Source: an uncultured Alphaproteobacteria bacterium (lineage in GTDB: Bacteria; Pseudomonadota; Alphaproteobacteria; CAZZKF01). From it: a stretch of 62,583 bases of DNA. The position numbers were made by a program, and so were the translations under genes. The notes below the pieces were generated by a model that searched no databases, had not been told where the DNA came from, and worked only from the letters and a program-made list of their open reading frames with translations. This document shows, one piece after another, positions 6,013 to 33,543 of the stretch; position 1 is the first letter of the stretch; each line of letters begins with the position of its first letter. The DNA lies in the NCBI GenBank assembly GCA_964654995.1, contig CAZZKF010000004.1, positions 1-62,583 on the forward strand, written 5' to 3'.

Positions 6013-8688
<2,676 letters not shown>

Positions 8689-11334: not shown

Positions 11335-11919
11335 TCAGATCAACTCGCCGGCCGCGTGAATCAAGGGCGCACGCGCCCGTTTGAGCGTCGGCACGACGTC
11401 ATCGACGCTGGTCACCACCTGATACATGCCGGTGGTGGATTCAGAGGCGAAGCCGGTTGCGACGATATGTTCCATCAGCGCCAGCAGGGGCTGCCAGTAG
11501 TCCTGATGATCGACCAGGATCACCGGCTTGTCGTGGAGGCCGAGCTGGCGCCAGGAAATGATCTCGAAGGTCTCATCCAGCGTGCCGATGCCGCCGGGCA
11601 GGCTGACGAAGGCGTCGGACAGCTCGAACATGGTGCGCTTGCGCTCGTGCATGCTCTCCACGACGATCAATTCGCTCAAACCTTCCATGCCGAGCTCGAT
11701 TTCGTTGAGGTGATGCGGGATGATGCCGATCACCTCGCCGCCGGCGGCGAGCGCAGCGCGCGCTGCCGTGCCCATCAGGCCGATGCTGCCGCCACCGAAG
11801 ACCAGACGCAGGCCGGCGTCTGCGAGGCCGCGGCCGAGCCGGGCGGCTGCGTCTTCGTAATCGCCGCCCTGGCCGAGGCGCGACCCGCAATACAGACAGA
11901 CGGTTGCGATTTCGCTCAT
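11335..11919 (-). CDS. LOG family nucleotide monophosphate nucleosidase (TIGR00730-like)
   Basis: LVFGGGSIGLMG, MHERK and PGGIGTLDE motifs. Confidence 0.92.
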   Translation of the reverse strand: MSEIATVCLYCGSRLGQGGDYEDAAARLGRGLADAGLRLVFGGGSIGLMGTAARAALAAGGEVIGIIPHHLNEIELGMEGLSELIVVESMHERKRTMFELSDAFVSLPGGIGTLDETFEIISWRQLGLHDKPVILVDHQDYWQPLLALMEHIVATGFASESTTGMYQVVTSVDDVVPTLKRARAPLIHAAGELI

Positions 11920-17272: not shown

Positions 17273-20200
17273 CTATTCGGCGGGCTGGCCGGCGGCGGCA
17301 GCGTTTCGAGCGCGGCGGCGATGACGCAAGGCGGCGACCTTGCCCTTGATCGCCGCCGGCGCGGCCAGCAGGCACGGGGTCACCACCAGGGTCAGCACGG
17401 TGGCGAAGCTGAGCCCGAAGACGATGGCCAGCGACAAATCCACCCACCAGATCGAATCCGGGTCGCCCACCACCACATGGCGGTTGATCAGATCGATGTT
17501 GGTCGAAAACACCATCGGCAACAGGCCGGTGACCGTGGTGATGGTGGTCAGCAGCACCGGGCGCAGACGCTGGGCGCCGGTGCGCAGGATGGCATCGATC
17601 AGGTCATAGCCTTCGCGGCGCAGCCGGGCGAAGGTGTCGATCAGCACGATGTTGTTGTTGACCACGATGCCGGCCAATGAGATCACCCCGATGCCGGTCA
17701 TGACGATGACGAAGGTGCGGCCGGTAACGATCAGGCCGACCAGCACGCCGACCGTGGACAACACCACCGCGGTGAGGATCAGGAAGGCGTGGTAGAAGCT
17801 GTTGAACTGGGTCACCAGGATGATCGCCATCAGGAACAGGGCGATCAGGAAGGCCTGGCGCAGAAAGGCGCTGGATTCGCGCTGGTCGCGGTCCTGGCCG
17901 GCGAACACCACGCGCACCCGGGGGTCGATCTTAGCCGCACTGGCCAGCCAGGCCTGCAGCTCGCGCACCTTGTTGTCGGCCAGCACGCCGTCGGCGACAT
18001 TGGCCTTGACCGTCATCACCCGGTGGCCGTCGATGCGGGTGATCTTGGCGATCTTGGGCTTCGGCGTTCGGGTGACGAAATTGCTGATCGGCACCATGCC
18101 GCGTGCCGTCTCGACACGCAGCTGATCGAGCTGGTTGATGGTCCGGGCGTCCTCGGGGAAGCGGACCCGGATGTCGATCTCGTCATCGCTGTCGTCGGGC
18201 CGGATTTCGCCGACCTTGATGCCGTTTGTGATCAACTGCACGGCGCTTCCGACCGTGACGATGTCGGCGCCGAAACGGCTGGCCTGGGCGCGGTCGACGC
18301 GCAGCTCCCACTGAATGCCGGGCACCGAGCGGTCATCCTCGATGTCGACCAGGCCGGTCATCTCGCGCTCCATGTGGGTGCGGATCCGGTCCACGGCCAG
18401 CGGAATCAGGCTGGGATCGGCCGAGGATACCCGGATCTCGATGTCCTTGCCCTGCCGCGGTCCGTTCTGGGGCAGGTGCGGCTCGACCACGATGCCGGCC
18501 AGCGACCCGGTCTTCTGGCGCAGTTCGGCAAGGATTTCCTTGGCCGGCCGGCGGCGCTCCCAGTCGACCAGCTCAAGCGTGATGTTGCCGATCAGGTCCT
18601 CGGCCTGGCGATTGCCCGCCGAGCCCGCCTGGGTGGTCGCATAGATGGTGTCTACGCCGTCGATGCCGCGGGCGATCGCCTCGACCTCGCGGACCAGGGC
18701 GTCGCGCTCGTCGATCGACAGATTGCCGCGGGCGTGGACCAGAAGGCGCACCGATGTCGGCTCGCTCTGGGGGAAGAATTCGACGCCCTTGCTGGTCACC
18801 AGATAGATCCCCCAGGTGCCGACAAGCACCACTGCGGCCACCGCCAGCACCCGCAAGGGGCGCCGCAGCAAGCGGCGCAGGGTCCGCACATACCAGCCGG
18901 TGAAGCCGGGAAGGGTGCTCAGATCGCCGTGGCTCGAGGCCGCGACGGCGCGCATCACCGCCGGGTCGGTGGTGCTCGGCCGGCCGATCTTGGCACCCAG
19001 GGTGGGAAGGAAGATCAGCGCCGAAATCAGCGAGCCGGTGAGCGTCACGATCAGGGTCAGCGGCAGGTACCACATGAATTCGCCGACGATACCGGGCCAG
19101 AACATCAGCGGCAGAAAGGCGGCCAGCGTGGTCGCTGTCGATGCCGTGATCGGCCAGGCCATGCGCTTGGCGGCGGTGGCATAGGCGTCGCGCCGGTCCA
19201 GCCCCTCGGCCATTTTCCGGTCGGCGTATTCGGTGACCACGATGGCGCCGTCGACCAGCATGCCGACGGCGAGAATGAGGCCGAACAGGATCACCTGATT
19301 GATCGTCAGGCCAAGGATCGAGAGCACCAGAAAGCCGAACAGGAAAGAGGTCGGGATGGCGATTCCGACCAGTCCGGCGGAGCGCGCGCCGAGCGCCGCA
19401 ACGATGACGATCGCCACCAGAAGAATGGCGCTGATCACGCTGTTCTCGAGATTGTTCAGGCTGGACTTCAGGTCGATCGCCTGATCGAAGGTGTATTTCA
19501 CCTCGACGTTGGGCGGCATCTGCGCCCGCGCCTCCTCGACCTCGGCCCGCACCGTGTCGACGGCCTGGATCAGGTTGGCGCCGGTGCGCTTGAACACCTC
19601 GATGCTGACCGATGGCTTGCCGTTGATCCGGGCGTAGCTGAGGCGATCCTTGAAGGTGCGGCGAATTTCGGTCACGTCGGCCAGCGTCACCACCGCATCG
19701 CCATTGGTCTTGACGGGGAGCTCGAGCACGTCGCGGGCGGTCTCGAACAGCCCCGGCACCTTGATCGCAAAGCGCCCGCGCCCGGTGTCGAGGGTGCCGG
19801 CAGCGACCAGCCGGTTGTTGCGCAGCACCGCCCGGATCAGCTCATCCTGATTGATGTTGTAGCTCTGCAGGCGGGCGGGATCGATGATCACCTCGATCAG
19901 TTCCTCGCGCTCGCCGCGCAGATTGGCCTCCAGAATGCCGGGCAGCCCCTCGATGCGGTCGCGCAGGTCCCTGGCCAGGCGCACCAGGGCGCGCTCCGGC
20001 ACATTGCCGAGCAGATTGACGACGATGATCGGGTCCTGGTTGATGTTGATTTCGTGGACCGTCGGCTCCTCGGTCTCGTCCGGCAGCTTGGCCTTGGCCA
20101 GGTCGACCTGGGCGCGGACGTCGGCAATCGCCTGATCGACGTCGAAGCCGGCATCGAACTCGAGGATGATATTGGCGCCGCCCTCGCGCGCCGTGGCGGT

Positions 20201-20443
20201 CATTTCCTTGACCCCGTCGACATTGCGCAACTCGGTTTCCATCGGCTTGACCAGAAGCCGCTCGGCATCCTCCGGCGAAATGCCTTCGTGAACCATGCTG
20301 ACATAGATGTAGGGGATCGGAATGTCGGGGCTGACTTCCTTGGGAATGCTGATATAGGCGATGGTGCCGGCAATGATCACCACCAGAAAGGCCGACAGCA
20401 CGCTGCGCGAATAGGTCAGCGCCGTATCGATGAAGCGATTCAT
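17273..20443 (-). CDS. RND efflux transporter permease (AcrB/AcrD/AcrF family)
   Basis: 1056 aa, 12-TM RND topology, GMLVDGAIVV and RLRPVLLTT motifs; overlaps MFP gene by ATGA. Confidence 0.93.
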   Translation of the reverse strand: MNRFIDTALTYSRSVLSAFLVVIIAGTIAYISIPKEVSPDIPIPYIYVSMVHEGISPEDAERLLVKPMETELRNVDGVKEMTATAREGGANIILEFDAGFDVDQAIADVRAQVDLAKAKLPDETEEPTVHEININQDPIIVVNLLGNVPERALVRLARDLRDRIEGLPGILEANLRGEREELIEVIIDPARLQSYNINQDELIRAVLRNNRLVAAGTLDTGRGRFAIKVPGLFETARDVLELPVKTNGDAVVTLADVTEIRRTFKDRLSYARINGKPSVSIEVFKRTGANLIQAVDTVRAEVEEARAQMPPNVEVKYTFDQAIDLKSSLNNLENSVISAILLVAIVIVAALGARSAGLVGIAIPTSFLFGFLVLSILGLTINQVILFGLILAVGMLVDGAIVVTEYADRKMAEGLDRRDAYATAAKRMAWPITASTATTLAAFLPLMFWPGIVGEFMWYLPLTLIVTLTGSLISALIFLPTLGAKIGRPSTTDPAVMRAVAASSHGDLSTLPGFTGWYVRTLRRLLRRPLRVLAVAAVVLVGTWGIYLVTSKGVEFFPQSEPTSVRLLVHARGNLSIDERDALVREVEAIARGIDGVDTIYATTQAGSAGNRQAEDLIGNITLELVDWERRRPAKEILAELRQKTGSLAGIVVEPHLPQNGPRQGKDIEIRVSSADPSLIPLAVDRIRTHMEREMTGLVDIEDDRSVPGIQWELRVDRAQASRFGADIVTVGSAVQLITNGIKVGEIRPDDSDDEIDIRVRFPEDARTINQLDQLRVETARGMVPISNFVTRTPKPKIAKITRIDGHRVMTVKANVADGVLADNKVRELQAWLASAAKIDPRVRVVFAGQDRDQRESSAFLRQAFLIALFLMAIILVTQFNSFYHAFLILTAVVLSTVGVLVGLIVTGRTFVIVMTGIGVISLAGIVVNNNIVLIDTFARLRREGYDLIDAILRTGAQRLRPVLLTTITTVTGLLPMVFSTNIDLINRHVVVGDPDSIWWVDLSLAIVFGLSFATVLTLVVTPCLLAAPAAIKGKVAALRHRRRARNAAAAGQPAE

Positions 20444-21522
20444 GTGGTGGCTCCGTTATCGGGGTGCACCTCGACTTTCTGGCCGGCGCGCACGAATTCC
20501 TGGCCGACGGTAATCACCGTCACCCGCGCCGGCAGGCCGGTGACCCACATGCCCTCGGGCTCGTCGCTGACGATGGTGACCGGCTGAAAGCGCACGATTC
20601 CCTTGCCGTCGACGATGCGGATGCCCATCCGGCCCTTGGCATCGAGAACCAGGAGCGCCGGCGAAATCCGGTGGGCCAGGATCTCGCGCGCGGTGATGCG
20701 GATTTCGGCGGTCATCCCGTCGCGCAAGGAATGATCGGGATTGGCGACTTCCAGCTCGACCCGGAAGGTCCGGGTCAGGGGATCGGCGGTCTTGGCAATG
20801 AACCGGACCTTGCCTTCGAGGGTCTTGCCGTCGAGCAACCGGACCTCGCCGACATCGCCGATGTTCAAGTCGCCGACATGGCGCTCGGAGACCTCACCGA
20901 CCACCAGGAACGGGTCTTCATCAACGATTGTCGCGCAGGTCTGGCCCTTTTGCAGATAGTCGCCGATCTCGACCGGGCGGTCGTCCACGGTGCCGGCAAA
21001 GGGGGCGAGGATGCGGGTGTGTTCAAGCTCGACCTGCATCTGCTTGACCTGCGCCCTGGCGCCGTCGAGCAGGGCCCTGGCGGCAGCCACCTGGTTTTCC
21101 GCGCGGTAGCCCTTGGCGGCAAGCTGGACGGCGGCGTCATATTCGATCTGGCGCTGGCGGACCAGGGCCTGGGCCTCGGCGAGGCGGGCCTTGCGGTCAT
21201 CCACTGCCAGCCGGCAGATCAGCTCGCCGGCCTTGACCTGGGCACCTTTTTCCACCGGCAGGGCGACGATCCGGCCATCCGTCTGGGCCTTGAGATCGAC
21301 GCTGCGCAGGGCCTGGGTGCGGCCGCGCAGGACGACGTCGCTGCTGTGCGGAACCGCGTCAAGCGTGCGCACCCGCACCTTGACCAGCGGCGGTGCACCG
21401 GGCGACGGGGCGGCGGTGGCGGAATCGGCGGCATCGTCGTTGCCGCCGCCGATCTGGCCGGTGAGGATCCAGGCGGCAACGCCGAGGGCGATCAGACCGG
21501 CGGTGAGATAGGATTTCTTCAT
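20440..21522 (-). CDS. RND efflux periplasmic adaptor (membrane fusion protein)
   Basis: N-terminal anchor, lipoyl-like and coiled-coil segments, ILAPFAGTV, DPLTRTFRVE. Confidence 0.92.
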   Translation of the reverse strand: MKKSYLTAGLIALGVAAWILTGQIGGGNDDAADSATAAPSPGAPPLVKVRVRTLDAVPHSSDVVLRGRTQALRSVDLKAQTDGRIVALPVEKGAQVKAGELICRLAVDDRKARLAEAQALVRQRQIEYDAAVQLAAKGYRAENQVAAARALLDGARAQVKQMQVELEHTRILAPFAGTVDDRPVEIGDYLQKGQTCATIVDEDPFLVVGEVSERHVGDLNIGDVGEVRLLDGKTLEGKVRFIAKTADPLTRTFRVELEVANPDHSLRDGMTAEIRITAREILAHRISPALLVLDAKGRMGIRIVDGKGIVRFQPVTIVSDEPEGMWVTGLPARVTVITVGQEFVRAGQKVEVHPDNGATT

Positions 21523-21572
21523 GGGACAGGGGGCTCCCCATATGTGTTGGTTTTCAGCCTATGTCGTTTGCA

Positions 21573-22115
21573 TCACTCGGCCGGTTCAACCCGCGCCTTC
21601 AAGGCCTCGATCTCGAGCAGATGACGGTTCTCGCGAATGAACCGGATGGCCGCCTCGTGCACCGCCCGGGCATAGCGCACGGTGAATTCGGCTCCGGCAC
21701 TGAGCGGTGTTTCCAGATACTCCTCCAATCGCGCCAAGACCTCTTCATGACCGGCAAGCCGCTGATCTATAAGCTCGGAAAGTTCGCCAGGCAACAACAG
21801 GTCGCAAAACAGCATCTTGGCAAGAAAATCGGAGCGGAAACGATCGGGCTCGGCCGGCTCGGCCAGCGCCTGGGCGAGCGCCAGGCGACCGCGCGGCGTG
21901 ATCCGGTAGACCTTCTTGTCCGGGCGCTTGTCCTGGGCGAGTTCCGTGCACGATACCAGCCCGTCCTCGGTCAGGCGGCTCAGAGCCGGGTAGATCGAGC
22001 CATAGCTGGCATCAAAAAACGCGCTGAAACAGCCGTTCTTGAGCTGCTTCTGGATCTCGTAGCCGCTGGCCTCTCCAAAGGTCAGCAGGCCCAGACAGGC
22101 GGTTTTGACGTCCAT
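21573..22115 (-). CDS. PadR family transcriptional regulator
   Basis: SGYEI, ASYGSIYPALSRL, RPDKKVYRITPRG motifs; directly upstream of MFP-RND. Confidence 0.92.
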   Translation of the reverse strand: MDVKTACLGLLTFGEASGYEIQKQLKNGCFSAFFDASYGSIYPALSRLTEDGLVSCTELAQDKRPDKKVYRITPRGRLALAQALAEPAEPDRFRSDFLAKMLFCDLLLPGELSELIDQRLAGHEEVLARLEEYLETPLSAGAEFTVRYARAVHEAAIRFIRENRHLLEIEALKARVEPAE

Positions 22116-22167
22116 GGTGTCAGCTGCTCGCTGAGACAGCCTGAATCACTGTCAACTTCCAACGTAA

Positions 22168-22202
22168 ATATATCAGGCCGATATATATCTCAGTTTGATA
22201 TT
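22168..22202. promoter_or_regulatory. Overlapping inverted repeats, putative PadR operator, over the padR promoter
   Basis: ATATATC-AGGCC-GATATAT (22168-22186) and ATATC-TCAGTTT-GATAT (22185-22201); minus-strand TTGCCG -35 at 22210-22205. Confidence 0.55.
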
Positions 22203-22340
22203 AGCGGCAACGTCTTAATTATTGGTTCCTGTACGTGCCGGACACGCCAAAGCCTGCGCCGCCAGGCGAGATATGCGGGCGCATTCGTGCTCCTGATCAA
22301 GTCCGGTTGCATCGTGTTGCCGCTTCTTTAGGATGCCGGG

Positions 22341-23798
22341 ATGACCGTTCAGACCCTTGTACGCGAGGCCGAGGCCTTGCTGCGGGCCGGGCGCCTCGCC
22401 GAGGCCCAACAGCTCTACCAGCGAATTCTCGCCCGCGAGCCTGCTCACGTCGAGGCGCTCGAGAAGCTCGCTTTCATTGCCCGCGCCGCCGGCCGCCATG
22501 CGGACGCCGCCGATCTGTTTCGCCGGCTCTCCCGCCGCCTGCCCGATGAGCCGCGGGTGCTGGTCAATCTCGGCAATGTGCTGATCGAGGCCGGCGACCA
22601 GGAGGCCGGGCTCGAGGTCCTGGGCGAGGCGGCGGCAAAGGCCCCGGATCTGGCGATCGCCCGGTTTTCCCTCGGCTCGGCCCTGTTGCACGCCGGGCGC
22701 CGGGCCGAAGCCGGCGAACATCTGGAATATGCGGCGCGCCACGACGGCGGCCAGGCAGAGGCCTTTCGCCTGCTGACCTTCGCCCGCGACATTGCCCCTG
22801 ACGATGCGCTCGCCGTGATCATGCGTACCCTGCTGGCGCGCCCCGGGCTGGGGCCGCGCGACCGCCTGCATCTCCATTTCGCGCTCGGCGCCGTGCATGA
22901 CCGGGCGGATGATTTCGATACGGCCTTTTCCCACATCGCCATGGCCAATCGCATCCTCAAACGCGATTGCCGGGTGAAGATCGAGCATTACCGCGCCTAT
23001 TTCGAGGATCTCAAGGCAACCTTTACGCCCGAGCTGATTGAGCGTCTGGCCGGACGCAGCGGGCGCACGCGCCTCACGCCCATCTTTATCGTCGGGCTGC
23101 CGCGCTGCGGATCGACGCTGGTTGAGACCATGCTGTCGCGCCACCCCGAGGTCGGCACGGCCGGCGAGGTCAACTATTTGGCCGAGGAGGTGACCCGCCC
23201 GCTGGTTGCCCGCCCCGGTGCGCAGTTTCCCCAATGTCTGCAAGACACCCGACCGCGCGACCTGGCCCGCCTTGGCGAGGCGTATCTGAAGCGGCTGTCC
23301 GGCCATGCGCCGGGCAAGGGCTGCGTTACCGACAAGAACCTGGCGCAGTTCCAGGTCATCGGGCTGATCCGGGTGGCATTCCCAAACGCCCGCATCCTGC
23401 ATGTGAAGCGCGATCCGCGTGATGTCGGCTGGTCGATCTTTCGCAATTTTTTTCCCGAAAACCTCCCCTTTTACTGCGATCTGGAGGATTTCGGACGCTA
23501 TCACCGGCTGTACCGCGACCTCATGGCCTTCTGGCAGGACCTGTGCCCGGACCTGATTTGCGAGGTGTCCTACGAGGCCCTGGTCGGCGACCCGGAAGCC
23601 GAGATGCGCCGCATCCTCGCCTTCCTCGGGCTCGACTGGGACCCGGCCTGTCTGGAACCGGAGGCCGCCACCCGCCCCATTCGCACGCTCAGCGCGGTGG
23701 CCGCCCGCCAGCCGGTCACGACCGGCGCGGTGGGTGGCTGGAAACGCTATGAGCGCCATCTGGCACCGCTGCTTGGCGCGCTGGGAGCCGAGGCCTGA
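22341..23798 (+). CDS. TPR-repeat sulfotransferase family protein
   Basis: N-terminal TPR helices; PIFIVGLPRCGSTLVE PAPS loop, TDKNL, RDPRDVGWS, YEALVGDPE motifs. Confidence 0.9.
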   Translation: MTVQTLVREAEALLRAGRLAEAQQLYQRILAREPAHVEALEKLAFIARAAGRHADAADLFRRLSRRLPDEPRVLVNLGNVLIEAGDQEAGLEVLGEAAAKAPDLAIARFSLGSALLHAGRRAEAGEHLEYAARHDGGQAEAFRLLTFARDIAPDDALAVIMRTLLARPGLGPRDRLHLHFALGAVHDRADDFDTAFSHIAMANRILKRDCRVKIEHYRAYFEDLKATFTPELIERLAGRSGRTRLTPIFIVGLPRCGSTLVETMLSRHPEVGTAGEVNYLAEEVTRPLVARPGAQFPQCLQDTRPRDLARLGEAYLKRLSGHAPGKGCVTDKNLAQFQVIGLIRVAFPNARILHVKRDPRDVGWSIFRNFFPENLPFYCDLEDFGRYHRLYRDLMAFWQDLCPDLICEVSYEALVGDPEAEMRRILAFLGLDWDPACLEPEAATRPIRTLSAVAARQPVTTGAVGGWKRYERHLAPLLGALGAEA

Positions 23799-23833
23799 AG
23801 ATGAGGGGACGGGAATCGGTGCGCTCGGGGGAC

Positions 23834-23907
23834 TGGCTGGGGGAGCAGGATTCGAACCTGCACTGGCGGAGTCAGAGTCCGCTGTCCTACCGTTAGACGA
23901 TCCCCCA
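23834..23907 (-). tRNA. tRNA-Gln (anticodon CTG)
   Basis: Reverse complement folds as cloverleaf: TGGGGGA/TCCCCCA acceptor (U1-A72), GCGGA-CTCTGAC-TCCGC anticodon arm, GGTTCGAATCC T-loop, encoded CCA. Confidence 0.97.
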
Positions 23908-23928
23908 GGGGCCAGCATTCAGAGGCCG

Positions 23929-23958
23929 AACATAGGGACCGGCCGACCCGCTTGTCAA
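23929..23958 (-). promoter_or_regulatory. Putative sigma70 promoter of tRNA-Gln (TTGACA-N17-CTATGT)
   Basis: Perfect -35 and alpha-type -10 about 20 nt upstream of the tRNA 5' end. Confidence 0.6.
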
Positions 23959-24054
23959 CCGCGCGGGCGGGCATGGCGTCACGCTCATGAAGTTGCTAGA
24001 ATTCGCCCCAAGTGGAAGAAAGATGAGCGGGCGAGGGGCCCCGGATTTAAAGAT

Positions 24055-25101
24055 ATGACTCAAGACCGGAGGCAGGCAGGGACGGCGGGCCCGGCGCGGC
24101 GCGGCTGCAAGGGCGGGCCGTGGCGCCGGCGCAATCGTCCGGTCTACGGCGCCGTCGATCTCGGCTCCAACAATTGCCGGCTTTTGATCGCGATTCCGTG
24201 CCGCGACCGGCCCAAGATCATCGATGCCTTTTCCCGAATCGTCCGCCTCGGCGAAGGCGTCGGCGAGACCAGCGCACTGTCGCCGGCGGCGATGGACCGG
24301 GCGATTACGGCGCTGCAGATCTGCCGCAGCAAGATGGCCCGGCGCGGGGTTCAGCGCATGCGCTGTATCGCCACCGCCGCCTGCCGCGAGGCCGACAACG
24401 CTGCGGCCTTCGTTGCCCGCGTGCGGGGCGAGACCGGCCTTGACCTCGAAATCATCGATCCGGAGGAAGAAGCCCGCCTGGCGGTCGCCAGTTGCCGCGA
24501 GCTGCTCGACCTCGAGGCCGGCGAGGCGGTGGTCTTCGATATCGGCGGCGGCAGCACCGAAATCATCCGGGTGCGGGCCGATGTCTGCGGCGAGCCCGAA
24601 GTCGTGTGGTGGAGCTCCTTGCCGTTCGGGGTGATCACGCTGTCCGAGCGCTTCGCCCACGATCGCATGAGCCCGGACGACTTCGAGGCCATGATCGGCG
24701 AGGCCCGGCGCCTGATGGTGCCGGTGCGCGAAAACGACGGTTTTGACGCAAACGGTGGTGATCTGCGGTTTCTCGGCACCTCGGGGACGATCACCACCAT
24801 TGCCGGCGTGCACTTGGGCCTCGCGCGTTACAACCGCAGCCGGGTCGACGGCCTGACCCTGAGCGCCCCGGAGATCGACGCGGTGACCGACCGGCTGGCC
24901 GCCATGACCTGTGCCGAACGGGCCGCCGAGCCGTGCATCGGGCCGGAGCGCGCCGACATGGTGCTGGCCGGCTGTGCGATTCTGGAAGCAATGAAACGGC
25001 TGTGGGACTTTTCGCAGCTGCGGGTCGCCGACCGGGGCCTGCGTGAGGGCATTCTTCTCGACCTGATGCAGGCCGACGGCCGCCTGCGCCGGGCGAGCTA
25101 G
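24055..25101 (+). CDS. ppx: Ppx/GppA family phosphatase (short form)
   Basis: AVDLGSNNCRLLI, ATAACREA, EEEARL, DIGGGSTE, DRGLREG; ATG 24055 chosen because the longer ORF overlaps the tRNA. Confidence 0.88.
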   Translation: MTQDRRQAGTAGPARRGCKGGPWRRRNRPVYGAVDLGSNNCRLLIAIPCRDRPKIIDAFSRIVRLGEGVGETSALSPAAMDRAITALQICRSKMARRGVQRMRCIATAACREADNAAAFVARVRGETGLDLEIIDPEEEARLAVASCRELLDLEAGEAVVFDIGGGSTEIIRVRADVCGEPEVVWWSSLPFGVITLSERFAHDRMSPDDFEAMIGEARRLMVPVRENDGFDANGGDLRFLGTSGTITTIAGVHLGLARYNRSRVDGLTLSAPEIDAVTDRLAAMTCAERAAEPCIGPERADMVLAGCAILEAMKRLWDFSQLRVADRGLREGILLDLMQADGRLRRAS

Positions 25102-25107
25102 GCTTCG

Positions 25108-27382
<2,275 letters not shown>

Positions 27383-27427
27383 CTTGGCCGAGACACCGGG
27401 TGGCGGGGCCCGGATGCGGCCCGCGCC

Positions 27428-28753
27428 GTGACCCCCGGCGCCCGCCTGCAGGCGGTTCTCGATATCCTCGATCAGATTTTGGGGACCGGCGAAGCGGGCG
27501 CGCCGGCCGCCGATCGCGCCATCGCCGATTATTTCCGCAGCCGGCGTTATGCCGGCGCCAAGGACCGGGCGGCGATCGCCGATCGGCTCTATCGGATCGT
27601 GCGCGGGCGCGGGGCATTGGTCTGGCGGCTGCAGCAGGCGGGCGAGGCGAGCGCGACCCCGCGCGCCCTGCTCCTCGCCGATCTGGCGACGGGCGGGAAG
27701 GGGGATGACGAGATCGCCGCCCTGTTTTCCGGCACCGGCTATGCCCCGGCGCCTTTGAGTACGGAGGAGCGCCGGCTGCTCGCCCGGTTGCTCGCAACCC
27801 CGCCCGCACCGCCGCCGGACTGGGCGCGGCTCAATTACCGCGAAGAGCTGGACGCCATGCTCAAGCGCCGCTTTGCCGGGCGCTTCGAGGAAGAGATGGC
27901 GGCGCTGGCGAACCGCGCGCCCCTGGATGTGCGGGTCAATGCGCTCAAGACCACGCACGAGGCGGTGATCGCCCGCCTGACCCGCGAGGCCGGCATCGAG
28001 GCCCATCCGACGCCGTTGGCGCCCTTTGCCCTGCGGCTGCCGGCGGGCACGGCGGTCCGTCGCACCCCGGCCTGGCGGCGCGGGATGATCGAGGTGCAGG
28101 ACGTTGGCGCGCAGGTCGCCGCCCGCCTCGTCGATGCCCGGCCCGGCCAGCAGGTGGTCGACTTCGCCGCCGGTGCCGGCGGCAAGACCCTGGCGCTCGC
28201 CGCCGACATGAACAACACGGGCCAGATCTACGCGCTCGATCGCAGTCGCGCGCGGCTGGCTCCGATTCGCGCCCGCCTCGAGCGCGCCGGCGTGCGCAAC
28301 ACCCAGATCGGTGTGGTGGATGACAAGACTCTGCGCCAGCTTGAAGGCCGCATGGACCGGGTGCTGGTGGACGCACCGTGCTCGGGCTCGGGCACCTGGC
28401 GGCGCACTCCCGATCTGCGCTGGCGCTACGGCGCTGACGACATTGCCGGGCTGGCCGCCCGCCAAAGGGCGTTGCTTGATGAGGCGGCGCGGCTGGTGGC
28501 GCCCGGCGGCCGGCTGATCTATGTGACGTGCTCCCTGTTCGCCGAGGAAAATGAAGACGTGATCGGCGCTTTTCTTGCGCACCGACCGGAGTTTGCGCCG
28601 CTTCCCTTTGCCCGGGTCTGGCCCGAGGTGCTGACCGGCGAGCCGCCGGAGACCGCCGCACTCACCCCGGAATCCCTGCAGCTCACGCCGGCGCGCCACG
28701 GCTGCGACGGCTTTTTCATTGCCATCCTTGCGCGCCGTGAGGCGGACGGGTAG
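27428..28753 (+). CDS. RsmB/NOP family RNA m5C methyltransferase
   Basis: [34 protein letters not shown] motifs. Confidence 0.92.
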
Positions 28754-28763
28754 GTTGCCGGCC

Positions 28764-30311
28764 ATGACGGAACGCGTGCTCATCGTCGATTTCGGATCGC
28801 AGGTCACCCAGTTGATTGCGCGCCGGGTGCGCGAATGCGGGGTCTATTCGGAAATCGTGCCGTATAACCGGGTCGACGAGGTGCTCGACGCCTTCGCCCC
28901 GCGCGCGGTGATCCTCTCGGGCGGGCCGGCCTCGGTGATCGATGCCGGCACGCCGCGGGCCCCTGAGCGCCTGTTCGAGCTCGGCATTCCGGTCCTCGGC
29001 ATCTGCTATGGCCAGCAGGTTTTGTGTGCGCAACTCGGCGGCACGGTGGAAAAGGCCGAATTTCGCGAGTTCGGCCGCGCCTTTCTGGACGTGACCGAAC
29101 ATTGCGCCCTGTTCGACGGCGTCTGGGAGCCGGGCCGCCGCGTCCAGGTGTGGATGAGCCACGGCGATACGGTGACCGCGATTCCACAAGGCTTCCGCGT
29201 CGTCGGGGTGAGTGAGAACGCACCCTTCGCCGCCATTGCCGACGATGAACGCCGGTTCTACGGTCTGCAGTTTCACCCCGAGGTGGTGCATACCCCCGAT
29301 GGCGCCAAACTGCTGGCCAATTTCGTCCGCCGCGTCGCCGGCTGCAAGGGCGACTGGAGCATGGCCGCCTTTCGCGACACCAAGATCGCCGAAATTCGCC
29401 GCCAGGTGGGCAAGGGCCGGGTGATCTGCGGGCTCTCGGGCGGGGTCGATTCGGCGGTGGTGGCGATGCTCCTCCACGAAGCGATCGGCGAGCAGCTCAC
29501 CTGCGTCTTTGTCGATACCGGCCTGTTGCGGGCCGGCGAGGCCGATCAGGTGGTCACCGTCTTTCGTGACCATTACAACATCGCGCTGGTCCATCACGAC
29601 GCCTCGGATCTGTTTCTGGCCAAGCTCGCGGGCGTGCGCGACCCGGAGGAGAAACGCAAGATCATCGGCGCCACCTTCATCGATGTCTTCGAGCGCGAGG
29701 CCAAAGAGGCCGGCGGCGCCGATTTCCTCGCCCAGGGCACGCTTTATCCGGATGTCATCGAATCGGTGTCCTTCGATGGCGGGCCCAGCGTCACCATCAA
29801 ATCGCACCACAACGTCGGCGGCCTGCCGGAGCGCATGAACATGGCGCTGATCGAGCCCTTGCGCGAGCTGTTCAAGGACGAGGTGCGGGTTTTGGGGCGC
29901 GAGCTGGGCCTGCCCGAAGCCATGGTCGGCCGCCATCCGTTTCCTGGCCCCGGCCTGGCCATCCGCATCCCCGGCGAGGTGACGCGCGACAAGCTCGATA
30001 TTCTGCGCCAGGCCGACCGCATCTATCTCGAGGAAATCCGCAACCACGGCCTTTACGACGCGATCTGGCAGGCGTTTGCCGTCCTGCTGCCGGTGCGCAC
30101 GGTGGGCGTCATGGGCGACGAGCGCACCTATGACTATGTCTGCGCCCTGCGCGCGGTGACCTCTTCCGACGGCATGACCGCCGACTCCTTCGCCTTCGAC
30201 CATGAATTCCTGTCCGGCGTGGCGACCCGCATCATCAACGAGGTGCGAGGCATCAACCGGGTGGTCTATGACGTGACCTCAAAGCCGCCCGGAACCATAG
30301 AGTGGGAATAA
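28764..30311 (+). CDS. guaA: GMP synthase (glutamine-hydrolysing)
   Basis: [40 protein letters not shown]-terminus; ATG 28764. Confidence 0.99.
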
Positions 30312-30361
30312 AATCAGATTGTTACGTCATGATTATGATGTGATGCCTTTATTGCATTTGT

Positions 30362-30405
30362 GGGGTCGGAGCCGTTGTTGCGACAGCTCGTCGAGGTTCT
30401 GACGC
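30362..30405. repeat. Inverted pair of short motif copies forming a hairpin (GGGGTCGGAGCC ... GGTTCTGACGC)
   Basis: GTCGGAGCC (30365-30373) pairs with GGTTCTGAC (30395-30403) with two G-T wobbles; same motif as 31253-31264 and 32584-32592. Confidence 0.55.
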
Positions 30406-31238
30406 ATGCTGACGACTGTTCTGCTCCTGTCATTTGTTCTGGTCGGATCAACTCTTTTTGCCTTGCGCCTTTATGATCATCGGGCGGATTGCGCGGCCAT
30501 GAAGCGGCTTGCGTCCATGCAGCCGGCACGGCCCGCGTGCTTTGATCCCGAGATGATCGCCGACCTGCCGGAGCTCGCCCGTCGGTATTTTCTCTATACG
30601 ATAGAACCAGGCACACCACTCTATACGGTGGCCAACATCACCATGGCGGGACGGTTTGGGATGGGGACAAAAAACAAGCCCGGCTATCTTGATATGACGG
30701 CGACGCAGACCCTGGCCCTGCCTGCGGGATTTGTCTGGAAAATGCGCGCCCGACGCGGCCTGATAACTCTATCGGGCTCGGACAGTGAACGCTGGACACG
30801 GTTCTGACTGGTCGGGCTGCTACCTGTGGCGCGTATGGGTGGAGACCAGGATCATGCCCGCTCGGCATTCGGACGCTATGTGGCCGAGGCCCTGTTCTGG
30901 ACCCCCGCCGCAGTTTTGCCCGGTTCCGGTGTGAGTTGGGAGGGGTTGGGGGAAAATTGCGCCAGACTCACCGTCAGGCATCAGGGGGCGTCGCGGTCCG
31001 TCGATGTCACAGTGGCGCCGGACGGTCAGCCCACTCAGGTCAGCTTTGAGCGATGGAGCAATGCCAATCCCGAAAGCAGTACCGGCTGCAGTCTTTCGGG
31101 GGTTTTCTCTCCGAGTTTCGATGCTTCGACGGCTTCCATTTGCCCACACATGTGGAAGCGGGCGACCATTTTGGCACAGAGCTCTATTTTCCATTTTTCG
31201 TGGCGAATGTGACAGATGTCGAATTTCCCCACGATTGA
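30406..31238 (+). pseudogene. DUF6544-like membrane-anchored protein pseudogene
   Basis: Same frame continues across in-frame TGA 30805-30807 (WTRF*LVGLLPVAR); 1-nt frameshift at the A-run 31073-31075 (NANPE|KQYRLQSFGG) leads to the natural end YFPFFVANV at 31238; family call from recalled motif similarity. Confidence 0.8.
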
Positions 31239-31250
31239 ATCGAAATGTTG

Positions 31251-31267
31251 AGGGCTCTGACCCCTTT
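31251..31267 (+). repeat. Motif copy AGGGCTCTGACCCCTTT (imperfect palindrome)
   Basis: TCTGACCCCTTT 31256-31267 identical to 32584-32595; GGCTCTGACCCC matches the reverse complement of 30362-30373 at 11/12. Confidence 0.7.
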
Positions 31268-31338
31268 ACGAGCGTCGCGTAATCCGCCGAATGCCTGTAT
31301 CGGGATACATCCGGCGCAATACGCTTCGCTACTACGCC
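31266..31338. repeat. REP-doublet (REPIN-like) hairpin overlapping the PEP-CTERM stop codon
   Basis: GCGTAATCCGCCG (31277-31289) and CGGCGCAATACGCTTCGCTACTACGCC (31312-31338, GCGAAGC core on minus strand) flank the palindrome TGTATC-GG-GATACA. Confidence 0.55.
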
Positions 31339-32069
31339 GGATGCGGGCTCAATCTTCGGCCCGAACACCTTCTCGATCTGCGCCGCCGGCGCATCATCAG
31401 GTCGAGACCGGCGAGACCAGCCCCGAACAGGGTGAGGCTGGCAGGCTCGGGAATTGCGTTTCCCACATCTCCCGCATCCCTGGTTTCCAGGATGACGTTG
31501 TCGAGGATGAGGCCGACGAAGTCGAAACCGGCATGGCTGAAGGTCAGCTTGTCACCGCCACCGCCAATCGTCAGATTTCGTGTAATCGTTTCGAACGGCG
31601 CGTCAAAAGCCTTCGTGAAGGATTCGTTGAGGTCGCCGAGCGTCACCGTGACCTCATCGTTAAGAGAAGCCCCGCGCTGGTTACCCGATAAATCGAAGCG
31701 CAGGGTATATGCGCCGGCAGCAAATGTCGTCTTGCTCACCAGGTCGCCTGCGCTGATAGATGTCCCGGCGAGATCGACGCACCGGCCGGCGCCCCCCACG
31801 CAATCAATGCTGAAGTCCCCCGACTGGATCAGGTCGACCGCGCCGTTAAGCACGTCCCAGTTGGTAAAGGCGTTGAAGTTCAGCACCGTACCGCTGCCCT
31901 CCGTGTCGAAGTTGTCCGACAGGACGACGACGGCGGAGGCGTTCCCCGCCAACAGTACGCCGCCGGCAACGAGGGTGGCCAGCAATGGCATTTGCGCACT
32001 ACCTAACATCCGCCTCAAACCCAGTCCCGCGAGGGCTGCGGCGGTGGCAGTGATGCGATGAAACAGCAT
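31332..32069 (-). CDS. PEP-CTERM sorting-domain surface protein
   Basis: Signal peptide ending GNASA, beta-rich Ser/Thr/Gly/Asp body, C-terminal IPEPASLTLFGAGLAGL followed by RRRRR; ATG 32069 is 6 nt from AAGGAG. Confidence 0.9.
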   Translation of the reverse strand: MLFHRITATAAALAGLGLRRMLGSAQMPLLATLVAGGVLLAGNASAVVVLSDNFDTEGSGTVLNFNAFTNWDVLNGAVDLIQSGDFSIDCVGGAGRCVDLAGTSISAGDLVSKTTFAAGAYTLRFDLSGNQRGASLNDEVTVTLGDLNESFTKAFDAPFETITRNLTIGGGGDKLTFSHAGFDFVGLILDNVILETRDAGDVGNAIPEPASLTLFGAGLAGLDLMMRRRRRSRRCSGRRLSPHPA

Positions 32070-32111
32070 GTTCATCTCCTTAGTTAGCTATCCGAACTCA
32101 ACCATCCAAAC

Positions 32112-32126
32112 GCAACCCGAATGCAA
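32112..32126 (-). promoter_or_regulatory. Degenerate proximal sigma54-like promoter TTGCAT-TCGGG-TTGC (invariant -24 GG reads TG)
   Basis: Matches TGGCAC-N5-TTGC except at the first G of -24 and the C; -12 element lies about 43 nt upstream of the PEP-CTERM ATG. Confidence 0.35.
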
Positions 32127-32220
32127 CGCTACAAACGCCGCGCCTTTCCTCGCGACCGGTGCGTCACGCGTCGAACTCCCTTCCGGTTGCCGACAGGCGC
32201 ACCTAAGTGACGGCGAGACA

Positions 32221-32236
32221 AGCAAGAATTATACCG
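32221..32236 (-). promoter_or_regulatory. Putative sigma54 promoter CGGTATAATTCTTGCT (GG-N10-GC)
   Basis: Exact GG-N10-GC spacing with TTGCT -12; lies between PEP-CTERM gene and enhancer array. Confidence 0.5.
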
Positions 32237-32255
32237 CCATCCCGGTATTCTTTAA

Positions 32256-32268
32256 TTTCAACAACTTA
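32256..32268 (+). promoter_or_regulatory. IHF-like site TTTCAACAACTTA
   Basis: One mismatch to WATCAANNNNTTR, in an AT tract between the sigma54 site and the first enhancer. Confidence 0.45.
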
Positions 32269-32298
32269 AAAGTGGCGCAATTGGGTGGTGCGCGCGCG

Positions 32299-32562
32299 AC
32301 TGTCAAGAAATCCGACGCTCAAACCGCCGCCACCGCTCCGACGCGGCGCCGTCGAACGTAAAACATAAAGCCTGTCAGTGCCTTACGATTACGCACGAGG
32401 CGGCTCCGCGGAAATGCCGAACTGTCAAGAAATCCGACACTCAAACCGCCGCCACCGCTCCGACGCGGCCCCGTCGAACGTAAAACATAAAGCCTGGCAG
32501 TGGCTTACGATTGCGCACGAGGCGGCTCCGCAGAAAATAGAGAACTGTAAAGAAATCCGACA
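32299..32562. repeat. Tandem repeat, 122/123-bp unit, two full copies plus a partial third, each starting with a TGT-N11-ACA type enhancer
   Basis: TGTCAAGAAATCCGACG 32301-32317, TGTCAAGAAATCCGACA 32423-32439, TGTAAAGAAATCCGACA 32546-32562; units 1 and 2 differ at 5 of the first 111 nt. Confidence 0.92.
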
Positions 32563-32577
32563 CCTGGCGTCGATATA

Positions 32578-32595
32578 AAGGATTCTGACCCCTTT
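32578..32595 (+). repeat. Motif copy AAGGATTCTGACCCCTTT at the right islet boundary
   Basis: 12-nt identity with 31256-31267; panB promoter-like TTGACG follows at 32615. Confidence 0.7.
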
Positions 32596-32682
32596 TATGG
32601 GCGGTGCGGAGTGCTTGACGAATCGGGCCGGCCATGGGCATGGTGAGGCGGTATCCACTCCAGACAGCAGGACCATGCAATC

Positions 32683-33543
32683 ATGTCGGTACAACGCCCC
32701 GCGAAGCGCATGACGATCCCCCGGATTCGGGCCCGCAAGGGCGGCGATCCGGTGGTCTGCCTGACCGCCTACACGACGCCGATGGCGGAGATCCTCGACG
32801 AGCATGTCGATCTGCTGCTGGTCGGCGATTCAGTGGGCATGGTGTTGCACGGTCTGCCCAGTACGCTCGGTGTGACGCTGGAGATGATGGCGATGCACGG
32901 CGCCGCGGTGGTGCGCGGCGCGCGCCATGCCTGCGTGATCATCGACATGCCGTTCGGCAGCTATGAGGAAAGCCCGCAGATCGCCTATCGCAATGCTGCC
33001 CGCCTGATGCGTGAGACCGGCTGCGCCGGCGTCAAGCTGGAAGGCGGCCAGGCGATGGCCGAGACCATCGCGTTTCTCACCGCCCGCGGCATTCCGGTGA
33101 TGGCCCATATCGGCCTGCAGCCGCAGTCGGTTAATGTCACCGGCGGCTACAAGGCGCAGGGCCGCGCCCGGGCCGAATGGGACCGCTTTCTGGCCGATGC
33201 CCGGGCGGTCGACGAGGCCGGCGCCTTTGCCACCGTGATCGAGGCGGTGGCCGAACCCCTGGCCGCGGCGATCACCAAGGAAGTGAAGAACGTGACCATC
33301 GGCATCGGCGCCTCGGCCGCCTGTGACGGCCAGATTCTGGTGACCGAGGACCTGCTCGGCCTGTTCGAGCGCAGCCCCAAGTTCGTCAAGCGCTATGCCG
33401 ACATGCGGGCGCTGATCGCCAAGGCGGCGCGAGGCTATGCCGAGGACGTGCGGGCGCGTACGTTCCCCGGGCCCGATCACGTCTATGCGCCGGAAGACGA
33501 GAGCGCCGGGGCGATCCCGCTCTATCCCCGGGCCGGGGTCTGA
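32683..33543 (+). CDS. panB: 3-methyl-2-oxobutanoate hydroxymethyltransferase
   Basis: [43 protein letters not shown]. Confidence 0.98.

What the first reader, a model, noticed from the sequence alone, without database searches (positions are those of the whole stretch)
30362..32597. Candidate cassette array: one short motif sits at the borders of both cargo genes of the integrase-less guaA islet
Seen: four copies of a GG(C/T)TCYGACCCC-like motif: GGGGTCGGAGCC 30362-30373 (inverted), GGTTCTGACGC 30395-30405 (abuts the pseudogene ATG), GGCTCTGACCCCTTT 31253-31267 (15 nt after the pseudogene stop) and TCTGACCCCTTT 32584-32595 (right boundary). Copies 3 and 4 are 12-nt direct repeats bracketing the PEP-CTERM gene with its full regulatory region; copies 1 and 3 are inverted around the DUF6544-like gene; copies 3 and 4 are decayed forms of the palindrome AAAGGGGTC-T-GACCCCTTT. 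I noticed no TCTGACCCC elsewhere in the window. Established: HUH (IS200/IS605, RAYT) transposases act on short palindromes. Inference: genes may be added here as palindrome-delimited cassettes by a trans-acting enzyme, an integron-like accumulation site without an integrase.
Basis: partly seen in the sequence, partly recalled or inferred. Interest (0 to 1): 0.72.

Follow-up and report, generated by a model that had tools for sequence, protein, structure and literature searches.

The report
Split hairpin flanking two inserted genes
Two foreign genes sit in the short spacer between the housekeeping genes guaA and panB of an uncultured alphaproteobacterium, and the short motif at their borders is best read as the arms of one former hairpin pulled apart by the insertions, not as the mark of a cassette-capturing enzyme.

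Summary
All four strings are at the stated coordinates. Three are related beyond chance: c1 (30362-30373), c3 (31253-31267) and c4 (32579-32595). The fourth, c2, is the ribosome-binding site and spacer of the DUF6544 gene and is a chance look-alike.

A syntenic relative has guaA and panB 134 nt apart, so 30362-32595 is an insertion. A sister lineage carries different DNA at the same spot, which makes it a local hotspot.

The cassette/HUH reading finds no support.
- Single motif copies do not fold.
- The motif occurs nowhere else in 62.5 kb.
- The 28 window ORFs scanned against Pfam and the genes flanking the islet include no transposase, integrase or RAYT.
- c1 is inverted relative to c3.

c1 and c3 are 12/12 complementary. 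Joined, they form a -27 kcal/mol hairpin followed by TTT, 50 nt after the guaA stop.

Best model (about 0.5): a hairpin after guaA was split by a recently acquired, promoterless DUF6544 fragment that is now a pseudogene. An older insertion carrying the PEP-CTERM gene is flanked by a diverged duplicate of the hairpin's 3' arm plus adjoining spacer.

This is an ordinary small islet with an informative scar.

The parts
28764..30311 (+). guaA (GMP synthase), left anchor of the site. Its 3' end holds one copy of GAGTGGGA (30300-30307).
   Evidence: Synteny with L148.
30312..30361 (+). AT-rich (32% GC) remnant of the native guaA-panB spacer.
   Evidence: Same position and composition as the first ~45 nt of the 134-nt spacer of L148/L149. 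50 nt here plus 87 nt on the right gives 137 nt, against 134 nt in the empty site.
30362..30373 (+). c1, GGGGTCGGAGCC: proposed 5' arm of the split hairpin.
   Evidence: 12/12 complementary to c3, including one G.U pair. Duplex energy -27.9 kcal/mol. Ends one base before homology to foreign DUF6544 loci begins.
30374..31242 (+). Acquired DUF6544 fragment: 32-nt leader with the SD sequence (this holds 'copy 2', 30395-30405), then the coding region 30406-31238. It is now a pseudogene with an in-frame TGA at 30805-30807 and a -1 frameshift in the A-run near 31072.
   Evidence: Pfam PF20181/PF21900. blastn 79-84% identity to L150-L156 over exactly this span. GC3 0.58-0.69 against 0.81-0.86 in host genes. 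The X3 strain has an extra A after 31072.
31243..31252 (+). AAATGTTGAG: residual loop of the hairpin or filler at the right DUF6544 junction.
   Evidence: Lies between the end of donor homology and c3. With these 10 nt as the loop, the joined flanks fold at -26.9 kcal/mol, z -4.0.
31253..31267 (+). c3, GGCTCTGACCCC plus TTT: proposed 3' arm and T-tract of the hairpin. Also the left copy of the direct repeat (31251-31267).
   Evidence: (D7).
31268..31331 (-). 3' untranslated region of the PEP-CTERM gene with a long imperfect hairpin. Its first ~27 nt weakly resemble the sequence that follows c4.
   Evidence: Minus-strand fold -23.3 kcal/mol, z -2.6. Anchored similarity to 32596-32624, p about 0.014.
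31332..32069 (-). PEP-CTERM protein gene (245 aa, choice-of-anchor-C-like domain), intact.
   Evidence: Pfam PF07589 and TIGR04362. AAGGAG lies 6 nt before the ATG at 32069. Nearest homologues 55-56% identical. GC3 0.74.
32070..32578 (-). Upstream region of the PEP-CTERM gene, including 2.2 copies of a 122-bp tandem repeat (32299-32563).
   Evidence: D1, D2.
32579..32595 (+). c4, AGGATTCTGACCCCTTT: right copy of the direct repeat (15/17 match, core 12/12). It can also pair with c1 (-21.5 kcal/mol) and is followed by TAT.
   Evidence: Unchanged in the divergent X3 strain, while 5 of the next 16 nt differ.
32596..32682 (+). Native spacer with the panB promoter block (-35 TTGACG at 32615-32620). 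Part of a 32636-32703 stretch that is biallelic in metagenome X1 and runs into the annotated 5' end of panB.
   Evidence: Conserved in L147, L148 and L157. Bubble shown.
32683..33543 (+). panB (ketopantoate hydroxymethyltransferase), right anchor. The true start may be the ATG at 32710.
   Evidence: Pfam PF02548. Synteny.

Best explanation
The motif is not a recombination signal that recurs. It is one structure seen three times by descent.

Inferred ancestral state: the guaA-panB spacer of this lineage carried a GC-rich hairpin, GGGGTCGGAGCC-loop-GGCTCTGACCCC-TTT(T). It lay about 50 nt after the guaA stop and just upstream of the panB promoter. It was probably the guaA transcription terminator.

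Inferred older event: a ~1.3-kb piece was placed behind the hairpin. It carried the PEP-CTERM gene, that gene's 3' hairpin and its long upstream region. The hairpin's 3' arm, the T-tract and perhaps about 27 further nt of spacer were duplicated. c3 is the left copy. c4 is the right copy and has drifted at GC>AT. The likeliest route is a single crossover of a circular DNA that carried a similar spacer segment. A long staggered break is the alternative.

Partly shown younger event: an 869-nt promoterless fragment holding only DUF6544 landed in or at the edge of the hairpin loop, so c1 and c3 now lie 879 nt apart. In other bacteria DUF6544 is the first gene of a DUF6544 + CPBP-protease pair. The right junction shares TCG with the donor, which suggests microhomology joining. 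The gene then decayed.

Shown:
- The empty site in relatives.
- The foreign origin and exact extent of the DUF6544 piece.
- The c1/c3 complementarity.
- The c3/c4 repeat.
- The absence of mobility genes and of other motif copies in the window.

Inferred:
- That the hairpin pre-existed.
- The order of the two events.
- The joining mechanisms.
For: Empty site: L148/L149 are syntenic from the TPR-sulfotransferase gene and ppx through guaB-rsmB-guaA | 134 nt | panB-yfgM-bamB-der. The window's 50-nt left and 87-nt right remnants add up to 137 nt.

DUF6544 is foreign.
- Protein homologues of 67-82% identity include named hits in Marinobacter, Halomonas, Lacimicrobium and Desulfobacteraceae.
- In the seven loci fetched for the three closest homologues it is followed by an Rce1-like/CPBP gene in at least six; L154 breaks off inside the next ORF.
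- Nucleotide homology is confined to 30374-31242.
- Its GC3 is low.

Hairpin.
- c1/c3 give 12 contiguous pairs and a duplex of -27.9 kcal/mol.
- The joined flanks fold at -26.9 kcal/mol with z -4.0 and 0 of 200 shuffles as good. TTT follows the stem.
- The positional null is 27/20000.

c3/c4 repeat.
- The positional null is 9/20000.
- The local alignment extends to 31251-31292 against 32579-32623, score 17 against a shuffle maximum of 15.
- The right-flank anchored test gives p = 0.0135.

Against a recurring element.
- Single copies do not fold.
- No other copy occurs in the window or in 1.37 Mb of alphaproteobacterial loci.

Other support.
- No mobility gene was found among the window ORFs scanned.
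- L148 also has a hairpin at the matching place after guaA.
- Relative ages fit the order proposed. DUF6544 has the most foreign GC3 and a frameshift still polymorphic between strains. c4 has drifted from c3, and the 122-bp repeats differ by 5%.
Against: - No allele with the intact hairpin (c1-loop-c3 without DUF6544) was found. Every metagenome that covers that part of the species' spacer has islet sequence there.
- The T-tract after c3 is only TTT.
- Canonical stem-plus-T-tract terminators are rare in this window.
- The AT-rich stretch right after guaA might be the real terminator.
- The left DUF6544 junction is known only to within about 35 nt, because non-coding similarity to 79-84% relatives fades. 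c1 could therefore have come with the insert.
- L148's spacer has no GC-rich hairpin, so the hairpin would be specific to this lineage.
- The mechanism that duplicated the 3' arm is not established. A perfect 12-nt core with degenerate flanks is also what att sites look like.
Confidence: 0.5

Rival explanations
1. Site-specific capture. TCTGACCCCTTT is the crossover core of an att-like site used by a recombinase encoded elsewhere. The PEP-CTERM unit (31268-32578) is an integrase-less unit integrated and possibly excised in trans, as CR2-sul2 is by the GIsul2 integrase at guaA.
For: - Direct repeat with a perfect 12-nt core and degenerate flanks at both ends of a complete gene with its regulatory region.
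- c4 is conserved in the divergent X3 strain while the next 16 nt change at 5 places.
- The same spot holds different DNA in L157.
- There is a precedent for trans-mobilised units between att cores next to guaA (PMC9376610).
Against: - No recombinase gene among the window ORFs scanned.
- No skipping or circular joint in X1-X4 contigs, though contigs hide rare forms.
- The PEP-CTERM gene has no relative above 56% identity and no second location.
- The GIsul2 core GAGTGGGA occurs only once.
- c1 is inverted, so the DUF6544 gene cannot be a unit of the same system.
- No motif was found beside the one distant PEP-CTERM homologue locus fetched, L144.
Confidence: 0.15
2. Non-autonomous transposon (mobile insertion cassette or TIME-like). 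30362-31264 is a 903-bp element with 12-bp terminal inverted repeats that start with GGGG. It carries DUF6544 as a passenger and is moved by a transposase in trans. c4 would be a solo end.
For: - c1 and c3 are oriented as terminal inverted repeats reading inward, 11/12 identical.
- The repeats enclose one gene and no transposase.
- From my own knowledge, untested here: GGGG termini are typical of Tn3-family ends.
Against: - The flanks TTTGT and TTTAC are not a target duplication.
- The repeat is 12 bp, not about 38 bp. Similarity stops at once inside it (by eye).
- The fetched loci of the three closest DUF6544 homologues lack these repeats.
- No other copy in the window.
- The c3/c4 similarity continues outside the supposed element end, through TTT and about 27 further nt. 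A solo end does not predict this.
Confidence: 0.1
3. REP/REPIN-type repeat handled by a RAYT (HUH Y1) enzyme. The copies would be members of an abundant intergenic family that happens to border these genes.
For: c1 plus c3 would form a REPIN-like doublet if adjacent. A second long hairpin lies next to c3.
Against: - Three copies, all within 2.3 kb, and none in the other ~60 kb with its roughly 40-50 intergenic spacers.
- Single units do not fold.
- No Y1_Tnp gene among the window ORFs scanned.
- No hit in Rfam.
Confidence: 0.05
4. Coincidence. Short GC-rich matches that a reader picked out after the fact.
For: - 12-nt perfect inverted pairs occur by chance in 3-kb stretches (L150 I4, L152 I8).
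- 11/12 matches are expected several times per 2.4 kb.
- Window-wide there is no enrichment.
- c2 is demonstrably a coincidence.
Against: When positions are fixed by independent junction evidence, the empirical frequencies are 1.35e-3 for c1/c3 and 4.5e-4 for c3/c4.
Confidence: 0.05

Closest known systems
GIsul2 / CR2-sul2 att-site array at the 3' end of guaA (PMC9376610)
   Same: Accessory DNA next to guaA. Units are delimited by short repeated cores. One unit has no integrase of its own and is moved in trans.
   Different: The GIsul2 core GAGTGGGA lies inside the guaA coding end and is repeated at every border. Here it occurs once and the islet starts 50 nt after the stop codon. No integrase was found, the motif is different, and one copy is inverted.
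Integron cassette arrays and CALINs (attC clusters lacking an integrase)
   Same: Single-gene units accumulate at one place. The DUF6544 piece is promoterless with a short leader, like a cassette.
   Different: There is no attC: no 57-141-nt imperfect palindrome and no RYYYAAC/GTTRRRY cores at the borders. The 12-nt copies do not fold. The PEP-CTERM unit carries about 500 nt of its own regulatory DNA. The two genes converge.
REP/REPIN elements with RAYT transposases
   Same: Short GC-rich sequences that pair as inverted doublets in intergenic DNA.
   Different: Not abundant: three copies in 62.5 kb, all in the islet. Single units are not palindromic hairpins. No RAYT was found among the window ORFs scanned.
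Mobile insertion cassettes (MICs) and Tn3-derived TIMEs
   Same: A passenger gene sits between short inverted repeats without a transposase.
   Different: No target duplication. The repeats are only 12 bp. They are absent from DUF6544 loci elsewhere. No second copy was found.
Insertions at or behind intrinsic terminators (attTn7 behind glmS, class C group II introns; terminator-like sequences are enriched just upstream of insertion sequences, PMC13548323)
   Same: Foreign DNA lodged at a hairpin between the end of a conserved gene and the next promoter, where it does little harm.
   Different: Here the inserts carry no mobility function. One insert sits inside the hairpin rather than behind it. 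The Tn7 and intron parallels are from my own knowledge and were not tested.

Membership tests
Integron cassette array / CALIN | Each unit ends in an attC site: an imperfect palindrome of 57-141 nt with R''/R' cores (RYYYAAC ... GTTRRRY) that folds as a single strand. | tested here: not met
   The borders read GTTGTTG (30374) and GTTGAGG (31248), and neither fits GTTRRRY. Motif copies fold at -2.1 and -1.8 kcal/mol, z > 0. No attC covariance model was available.
Integron cassette array / CALIN | Cassettes are co-oriented and mostly promoterless. | tested here: not met
   DUF6544 (+) and PEP-CTERM (-) converge. The PEP-CTERM unit has about 500 nt of upstream DNA with tandem repeats.
REP / REPIN with RAYT | Tens to hundreds of copies spread over intergenic regions. 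| tested here: inconclusive
   Window: no copy outside the islet.
REP / REPIN with RAYT | Each unit is an imperfect palindrome that forms a hairpin. | tested here: not met
   z +0.17 and +0.46 for c3 and c4.
REP / REPIN with RAYT | A Y1 (PF01797) transposase gene in the genome, often flanked by REPs. | tested here: inconclusive
   None among 28 window ORFs or the genes listed for L081. The rest of the genome could not be reached.
GIsul2-type guaA island | The att core GAGTGGGA is repeated at each border of the inserted units. | tested here: not met
   One copy only, at 30300-30307.
GIsul2-type guaA island | A tyrosine integrase next to attL. | tested here: not met
   No integrase lies between guaA and panB or among the window ORFs scanned.
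Mobile insertion cassette / TIME | Terminal inverted repeats that match a transposon family. | tested here: inconclusive
   A 12-bp inverted repeat (11/12) is present. A match to any transposon family's ends was not tested. The GGGG resemblance to Tn3-family ends is from memory.
Mobile insertion cassette / TIME | A direct target-site duplication outside the repeats. | tested here: not met
   TTTGT on the left against TTTAC on the right.
Mobile insertion cassette / TIME | The same ends flank the passenger gene or other cargo elsewhere. | tested here: not met
   Absent from L150-L156 and from the rest of the window.
Intrinsic (Rho-independent) terminator, reconstructed from c1 + c3 | A GC-rich stem, a short loop, then a T-tract, downstream of a gene on the same strand. 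| tested here: inconclusive
   The joined flanks give a 12-bp stem, -26.9 kcal/mol, z -4.0, 50 nt after guaA on the + strand. The loop would be 10 nt and the tract only TTT. The intact form was not observed, and such terminators are rare in the window.

The most novel reading that the evidence does not exclude
The hairpin between guaA and panB is a dedicated landing site. An unlinked enzyme recognises the GGGGTC...GACCCC stem and inserts single genes or small units into or beside it. This would have produced at least three independent insertions in two sister lineages: DUF6544 and PEP-CTERM here, and the MarR + RelE/ParE block in L157. That would be an integrase-less, hairpin-targeted gene-capture site.
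Probability: 0.1. Interest if true: 0.7.

Novelty: new member of a known kind. Interest (0 to 1): 0.25.

Why it matters
The case shows how a junction 'motif' can arise by descent from one hairpin that insertions pulled apart, with no enzyme acting on repeated sites. That is a useful control for scans that look for new cassette systems.

It documents a small insertion hotspot between two core genes in an uncultured alphaproteobacterial lineage from microbial mats and vents. Three states were seen: empty, DUF6544 + PEP-CTERM, and MarR + toxin remnant.

It also shows that DUF6544, paired elsewhere with a CPBP protease, moves between phyla at 67-82% protein identity.

If the minority reading were right, with hairpin-targeted capture in trans, it would be a new route of gene accretion. 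Nothing found here requires it.

Tried and rejected
- The one genome-contig scan used guaA as the query and returned only relatives of 77% identity or less. Five had panB 3-6 kb downstream with unrelated genes in between. This helped only as a 1.37-Mb background for motif counts.
- The one metagenome scan went on a 19-mer from an apparent alternative junction at 32650. All 62 hits were unrelated. The 'junction' proved to be a divergent allele of the panB leader that rejoins at 32704.
- A search with the guaA end plus spacer found no run with an empty or different left junction.
- tRNA fragments and known RNA families in the islet: none.
- Inverted repeats around DUF6544 modules in other genomes: only chance pairs.
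- c4 as a decayed complete hairpin (GGCGTCG 32566-32572 pairing with TGACCCC): the fold is not better than shuffles.
- The MarR protein of L157 was looked up to reach the guaA side of that relative. Only the same contig came back.
Full report
**Setting**

The window is GC-rich (66%) and comes from an uncultured alphaproteobacterium. A JGI microbial-mat contig (L081) is 99.5% identical over 13.9 kb. It has no difference between 29652 and its end at 32635. Around the finding the genes run guaB, rsmB, guaA (28764-30311), the islet, panB (32683-33543), yfgM-like, bamB, der. The 28 larger ORFs scanned elsewhere in the window are either housekeeping genes (fliQR/flhB, alaS, icd, psd, pssA, purF, radA, dnaB, fabF, ksgA, pdxA, surA, lptD and others) or gave no Pfam family (three of them). 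None is a transposase, integrase or Y1/RAYT gene. ORFs under 90 aa and a few gaps between calls were not scanned.

**Observation**

The four strings are at the stated places. TCTGACCCC and TCTGACCCCTTT occur only at 31256 and 32584 in 62.5 kb. In 1.37 Mb of other alphaproteobacterial loci, TCTGACCCC occurs four times and TCTGACCCCTT never. The degenerate motif is not enriched in the window: 13 hits against 10 expected at up to 2 mismatches. By length alone the matches are unremarkable, because 12-nt perfect inverted pairs turn up by chance in 3-kb stretches. What makes three of them significant is their position relative to junctions that I could define independently.

**The islet is an insertion**

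- L148 is a Sphingomonadales MAG with panB 77% identical. It and L149 are syntenic from the TPR-sulfotransferase gene and ppx through guaB-rsmB-guaA to panB-yfgM-bamB-der. In both, guaA and panB are separated by only 134 nt.
- The window keeps an AT-rich 50 nt after guaA (30312-30361, 32% GC) and 87 nt before panB (32596-32682). Together these make 137 nt.
- The panB promoter block (TTGACG at 32615-32620) aligns in L147, L148 and L157.
- L157 is a sister lineage (panB 91% aa, about 84% nt). It is homologous to the window only from 32607 rightwards. To the left it carries an AT-rich tract, an N-terminally truncated RelE/ParE toxin gene (TIGR02683, E 6e-21) and a MarR gene, and then the contig ends.
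- The divergent strain in metagenome X3 is window-like up to c4. It then differs at 5 of 16 positions (32598-32613) and becomes L157-like, reading CTCGGAGTTCTTGACG.
- The right border of the variable DNA therefore lies between 32596 and 32606, directly after c4. The spot is variable across this clade.

**The DUF6544 piece**

- The gene is broken by an in-frame TGA (30805) and a frameshift in an A-run near 31072. X3 has one more A there, so the decay is still polymorphic.
- Read through, the protein is 67-82% identical to the best 120 homologues listed. The named ones are from Marinobacter, Halomonas, Lacimicrobium and Desulfobacteraceae.
- In the seven loci fetched for the three closest homologues, the gene is followed by an Rce1-like/CPBP protease gene in at least six. 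L154 breaks off 100 nt into the next ORF.
- blastn homology to these loci covers exactly 30374-31242. That is 32 nt before the ATG to 4 nt after the stop. The protease partner is absent.
- GC3 is 0.58-0.69 against 0.81-0.86 in host genes.
- 'Copy 2' of the motif is the GAGG Shine-Dalgarno sequence plus spacer of this leader. It reads GGTCCTGAATC or GGATTTGAAAC in the homologues, so it is a coincidence.
- The left junction is less exact than the right. Non-coding similarity to 79-84% relatives fades, so the junction lies somewhere in about 30340-30374.

**c1 and c3**

c1 ends at 30373. c3 begins 10 nt after the donor homology ends. They are inverted and pair over 12 contiguous positions, including one G.U pair, with a duplex energy of -27.9 kcal/mol. 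With the flanks joined and the 10 intervening nt kept as the loop, the RNA folds at -26.9 kcal/mol. That gives z -4.0, with 0 of 200 shuffles as good, and TTT follows. In 20000 random placements in this window, a stem of this quality between a 35-nt and a 30-nt window 870 nt apart occurred 27 times. Each copy alone does not fold. The simplest reading is that c1 and c3 were the arms of one hairpin located 50 nt after guaA, and that the DUF6544 fragment landed in its loop. L148 also has a hairpin at the matching place.

**c3 and c4**

These copies flank the PEP-CTERM gene, its 3' hairpin and its roughly 500-nt upstream region with the 122-bp tandem repeat. The repeat matches at 15 of 17 positions with a perfect 12-nt core. 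The positional null is 9/20000. A local alignment runs on to the right: 31251-31292 against 32579-32623, score 17 against a shuffle maximum of 15. The anchored right flank alone gives p = 0.0135. So the 12-mer looks like the best-kept part of a longer, decayed duplication of native spacer: the 3' arm, the T-tract and the start of the panB promoter region. c4 can still pair with c1 (-21.5 kcal/mol). The PEP-CTERM gene has no relative above 56% identity and is known only from this locus. Its GC3 of 0.74 is intermediate.

**Population data**

Contigs of the four metagenomes laid across the whole islet (X1-X4; microbial mat, hydrothermal vent and one other study) hold parts or all of it. They show no joint that skips or inverts either unit. 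X5 and X7 were laid only on 30200-30700 and do not cover the islet there. Contigs hide rare forms, so this is weak evidence against excision. An apparent break at 32635/32650 is a bubble between two alleles of the 32636-32703 stretch, which covers the panB leader and the start of the annotated ORF. The two alleles differ by 10 substitutions and 12 inserted nt, have depths 26 and 20, and rejoin at 32704. This is unrelated to the motif.

**Model and rivals**

My best model (about 0.5) is descent from one hairpin.
- First, an older insertion of the PEP-CTERM unit behind the hairpin duplicated the 3' arm and adjoining spacer. This probably happened by a single crossover with a circular DNA carrying a similar segment.
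- Later, a promoterless DUF6544 fragment inserted into the loop. TCG is shared at its right junction, which hints at microhomology joining. The gene then decayed.

The rivals are as follows.
- An att-like core used in trans for the PEP-CTERM unit (0.15). The GIsul2/CR2-sul2 array at guaA is the precedent (PMC9376610), but its core GAGTGGGA occurs only once here.
- A mobile-insertion-cassette-like element with 12-bp ends (0.10). It has no target duplication, and the ends are absent from other DUF6544 loci.
- A REP/RAYT family (0.05).
- Coincidence (0.05).

**Weak points**

- The intact hairpin was not observed.
- The T-tract is short.
- Canonical terminators are rare in this window.

**Verdict**

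This is a real small islet at a local hotspot, with an informative scar. The cassette/HUH mechanism is not supported. Interest is low to moderate.

Noticed in passing
window 32636-32703: Metagenome X1 holds two alleles of this stretch, which spans the panB leader and the first 21 nt of the annotated panB ORF, at similar depth (26 and 20). They differ by 10 substitutions and 12 inserted nt and rejoin at 32704. X3 has the second allele. The JGI contig L081 ends at this bubble.
   Followed up: yes
L150-L156 (for example L151:6001-7675) and window 30374-31242: In the fetched loci of the three closest homologues, DUF6544 is followed by, or overlaps, one or two Rce1-like/CPBP intramembrane protease genes. 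L154 is cut off inside the next ORF. The DUF6544 protein is 67-82% identical between this alphaproteobacterium and hits that include Marinobacter, Halomonas and Desulfobacteraceae, so it looks like a widely transferred two-gene module of unknown function. No paper in the library mentions DUF6544.
   Followed up: partly
window 31072 and 30668: The DUF6544 pseudogene is polymorphic. The X3 strain has an extra A after 31072, where the window has its frameshift. The X4 strain lacks one base at 30668.
   Followed up: partly
L157:1-1236: A sister lineage (panB 91% identical) carries other DNA directly upstream of the same panB promoter block: a very AT-rich 170-nt tract, a truncated RelE/ParE toxin gene (TIGR02683) and a MarR gene. 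The contig ends there, so the guaA side is unknown.
   Followed up: partly
window 30300-30307: The last codons of guaA contain GAGTGGGA, the att core used by GIsul2-type islands in Gammaproteobacteria (PMC9376610). It occurs once and is unoccupied.
   Followed up: yes
window 18764-32635 against L081: The 73 differences between the window and the JGI contig are clustered (for example 20455-20491, 24744-24762, 27517-28167). There are none after 29651. The pattern looks like short recombination patches, with the guaA end and the islet identical in both populations.
   Followed up: no
window 32299-32563: 2.2 copies of a 122-bp tandem repeat (95% alike) lie upstream of the PEP-CTERM gene, each starting with CTGTCAAGAAATCCGAC. 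Logan unitigs break inside it.
   Followed up: no
window 31270-31330, minus strand: A long imperfect hairpin lies directly after the PEP-CTERM stop codon (-23.3 kcal/mol, z -2.6). It is probably the end of that gene's transcript.
   Followed up: partly
whole window: A scan for stems of 8 or more pairs followed by a T-tract found only three sites in 62.5 kb (about 1331-1354, 7961-7988 and 11829-11851). By coordinates each falls inside one of the larger ORFs called. Canonical intrinsic terminators seem rare here.
   Followed up: no
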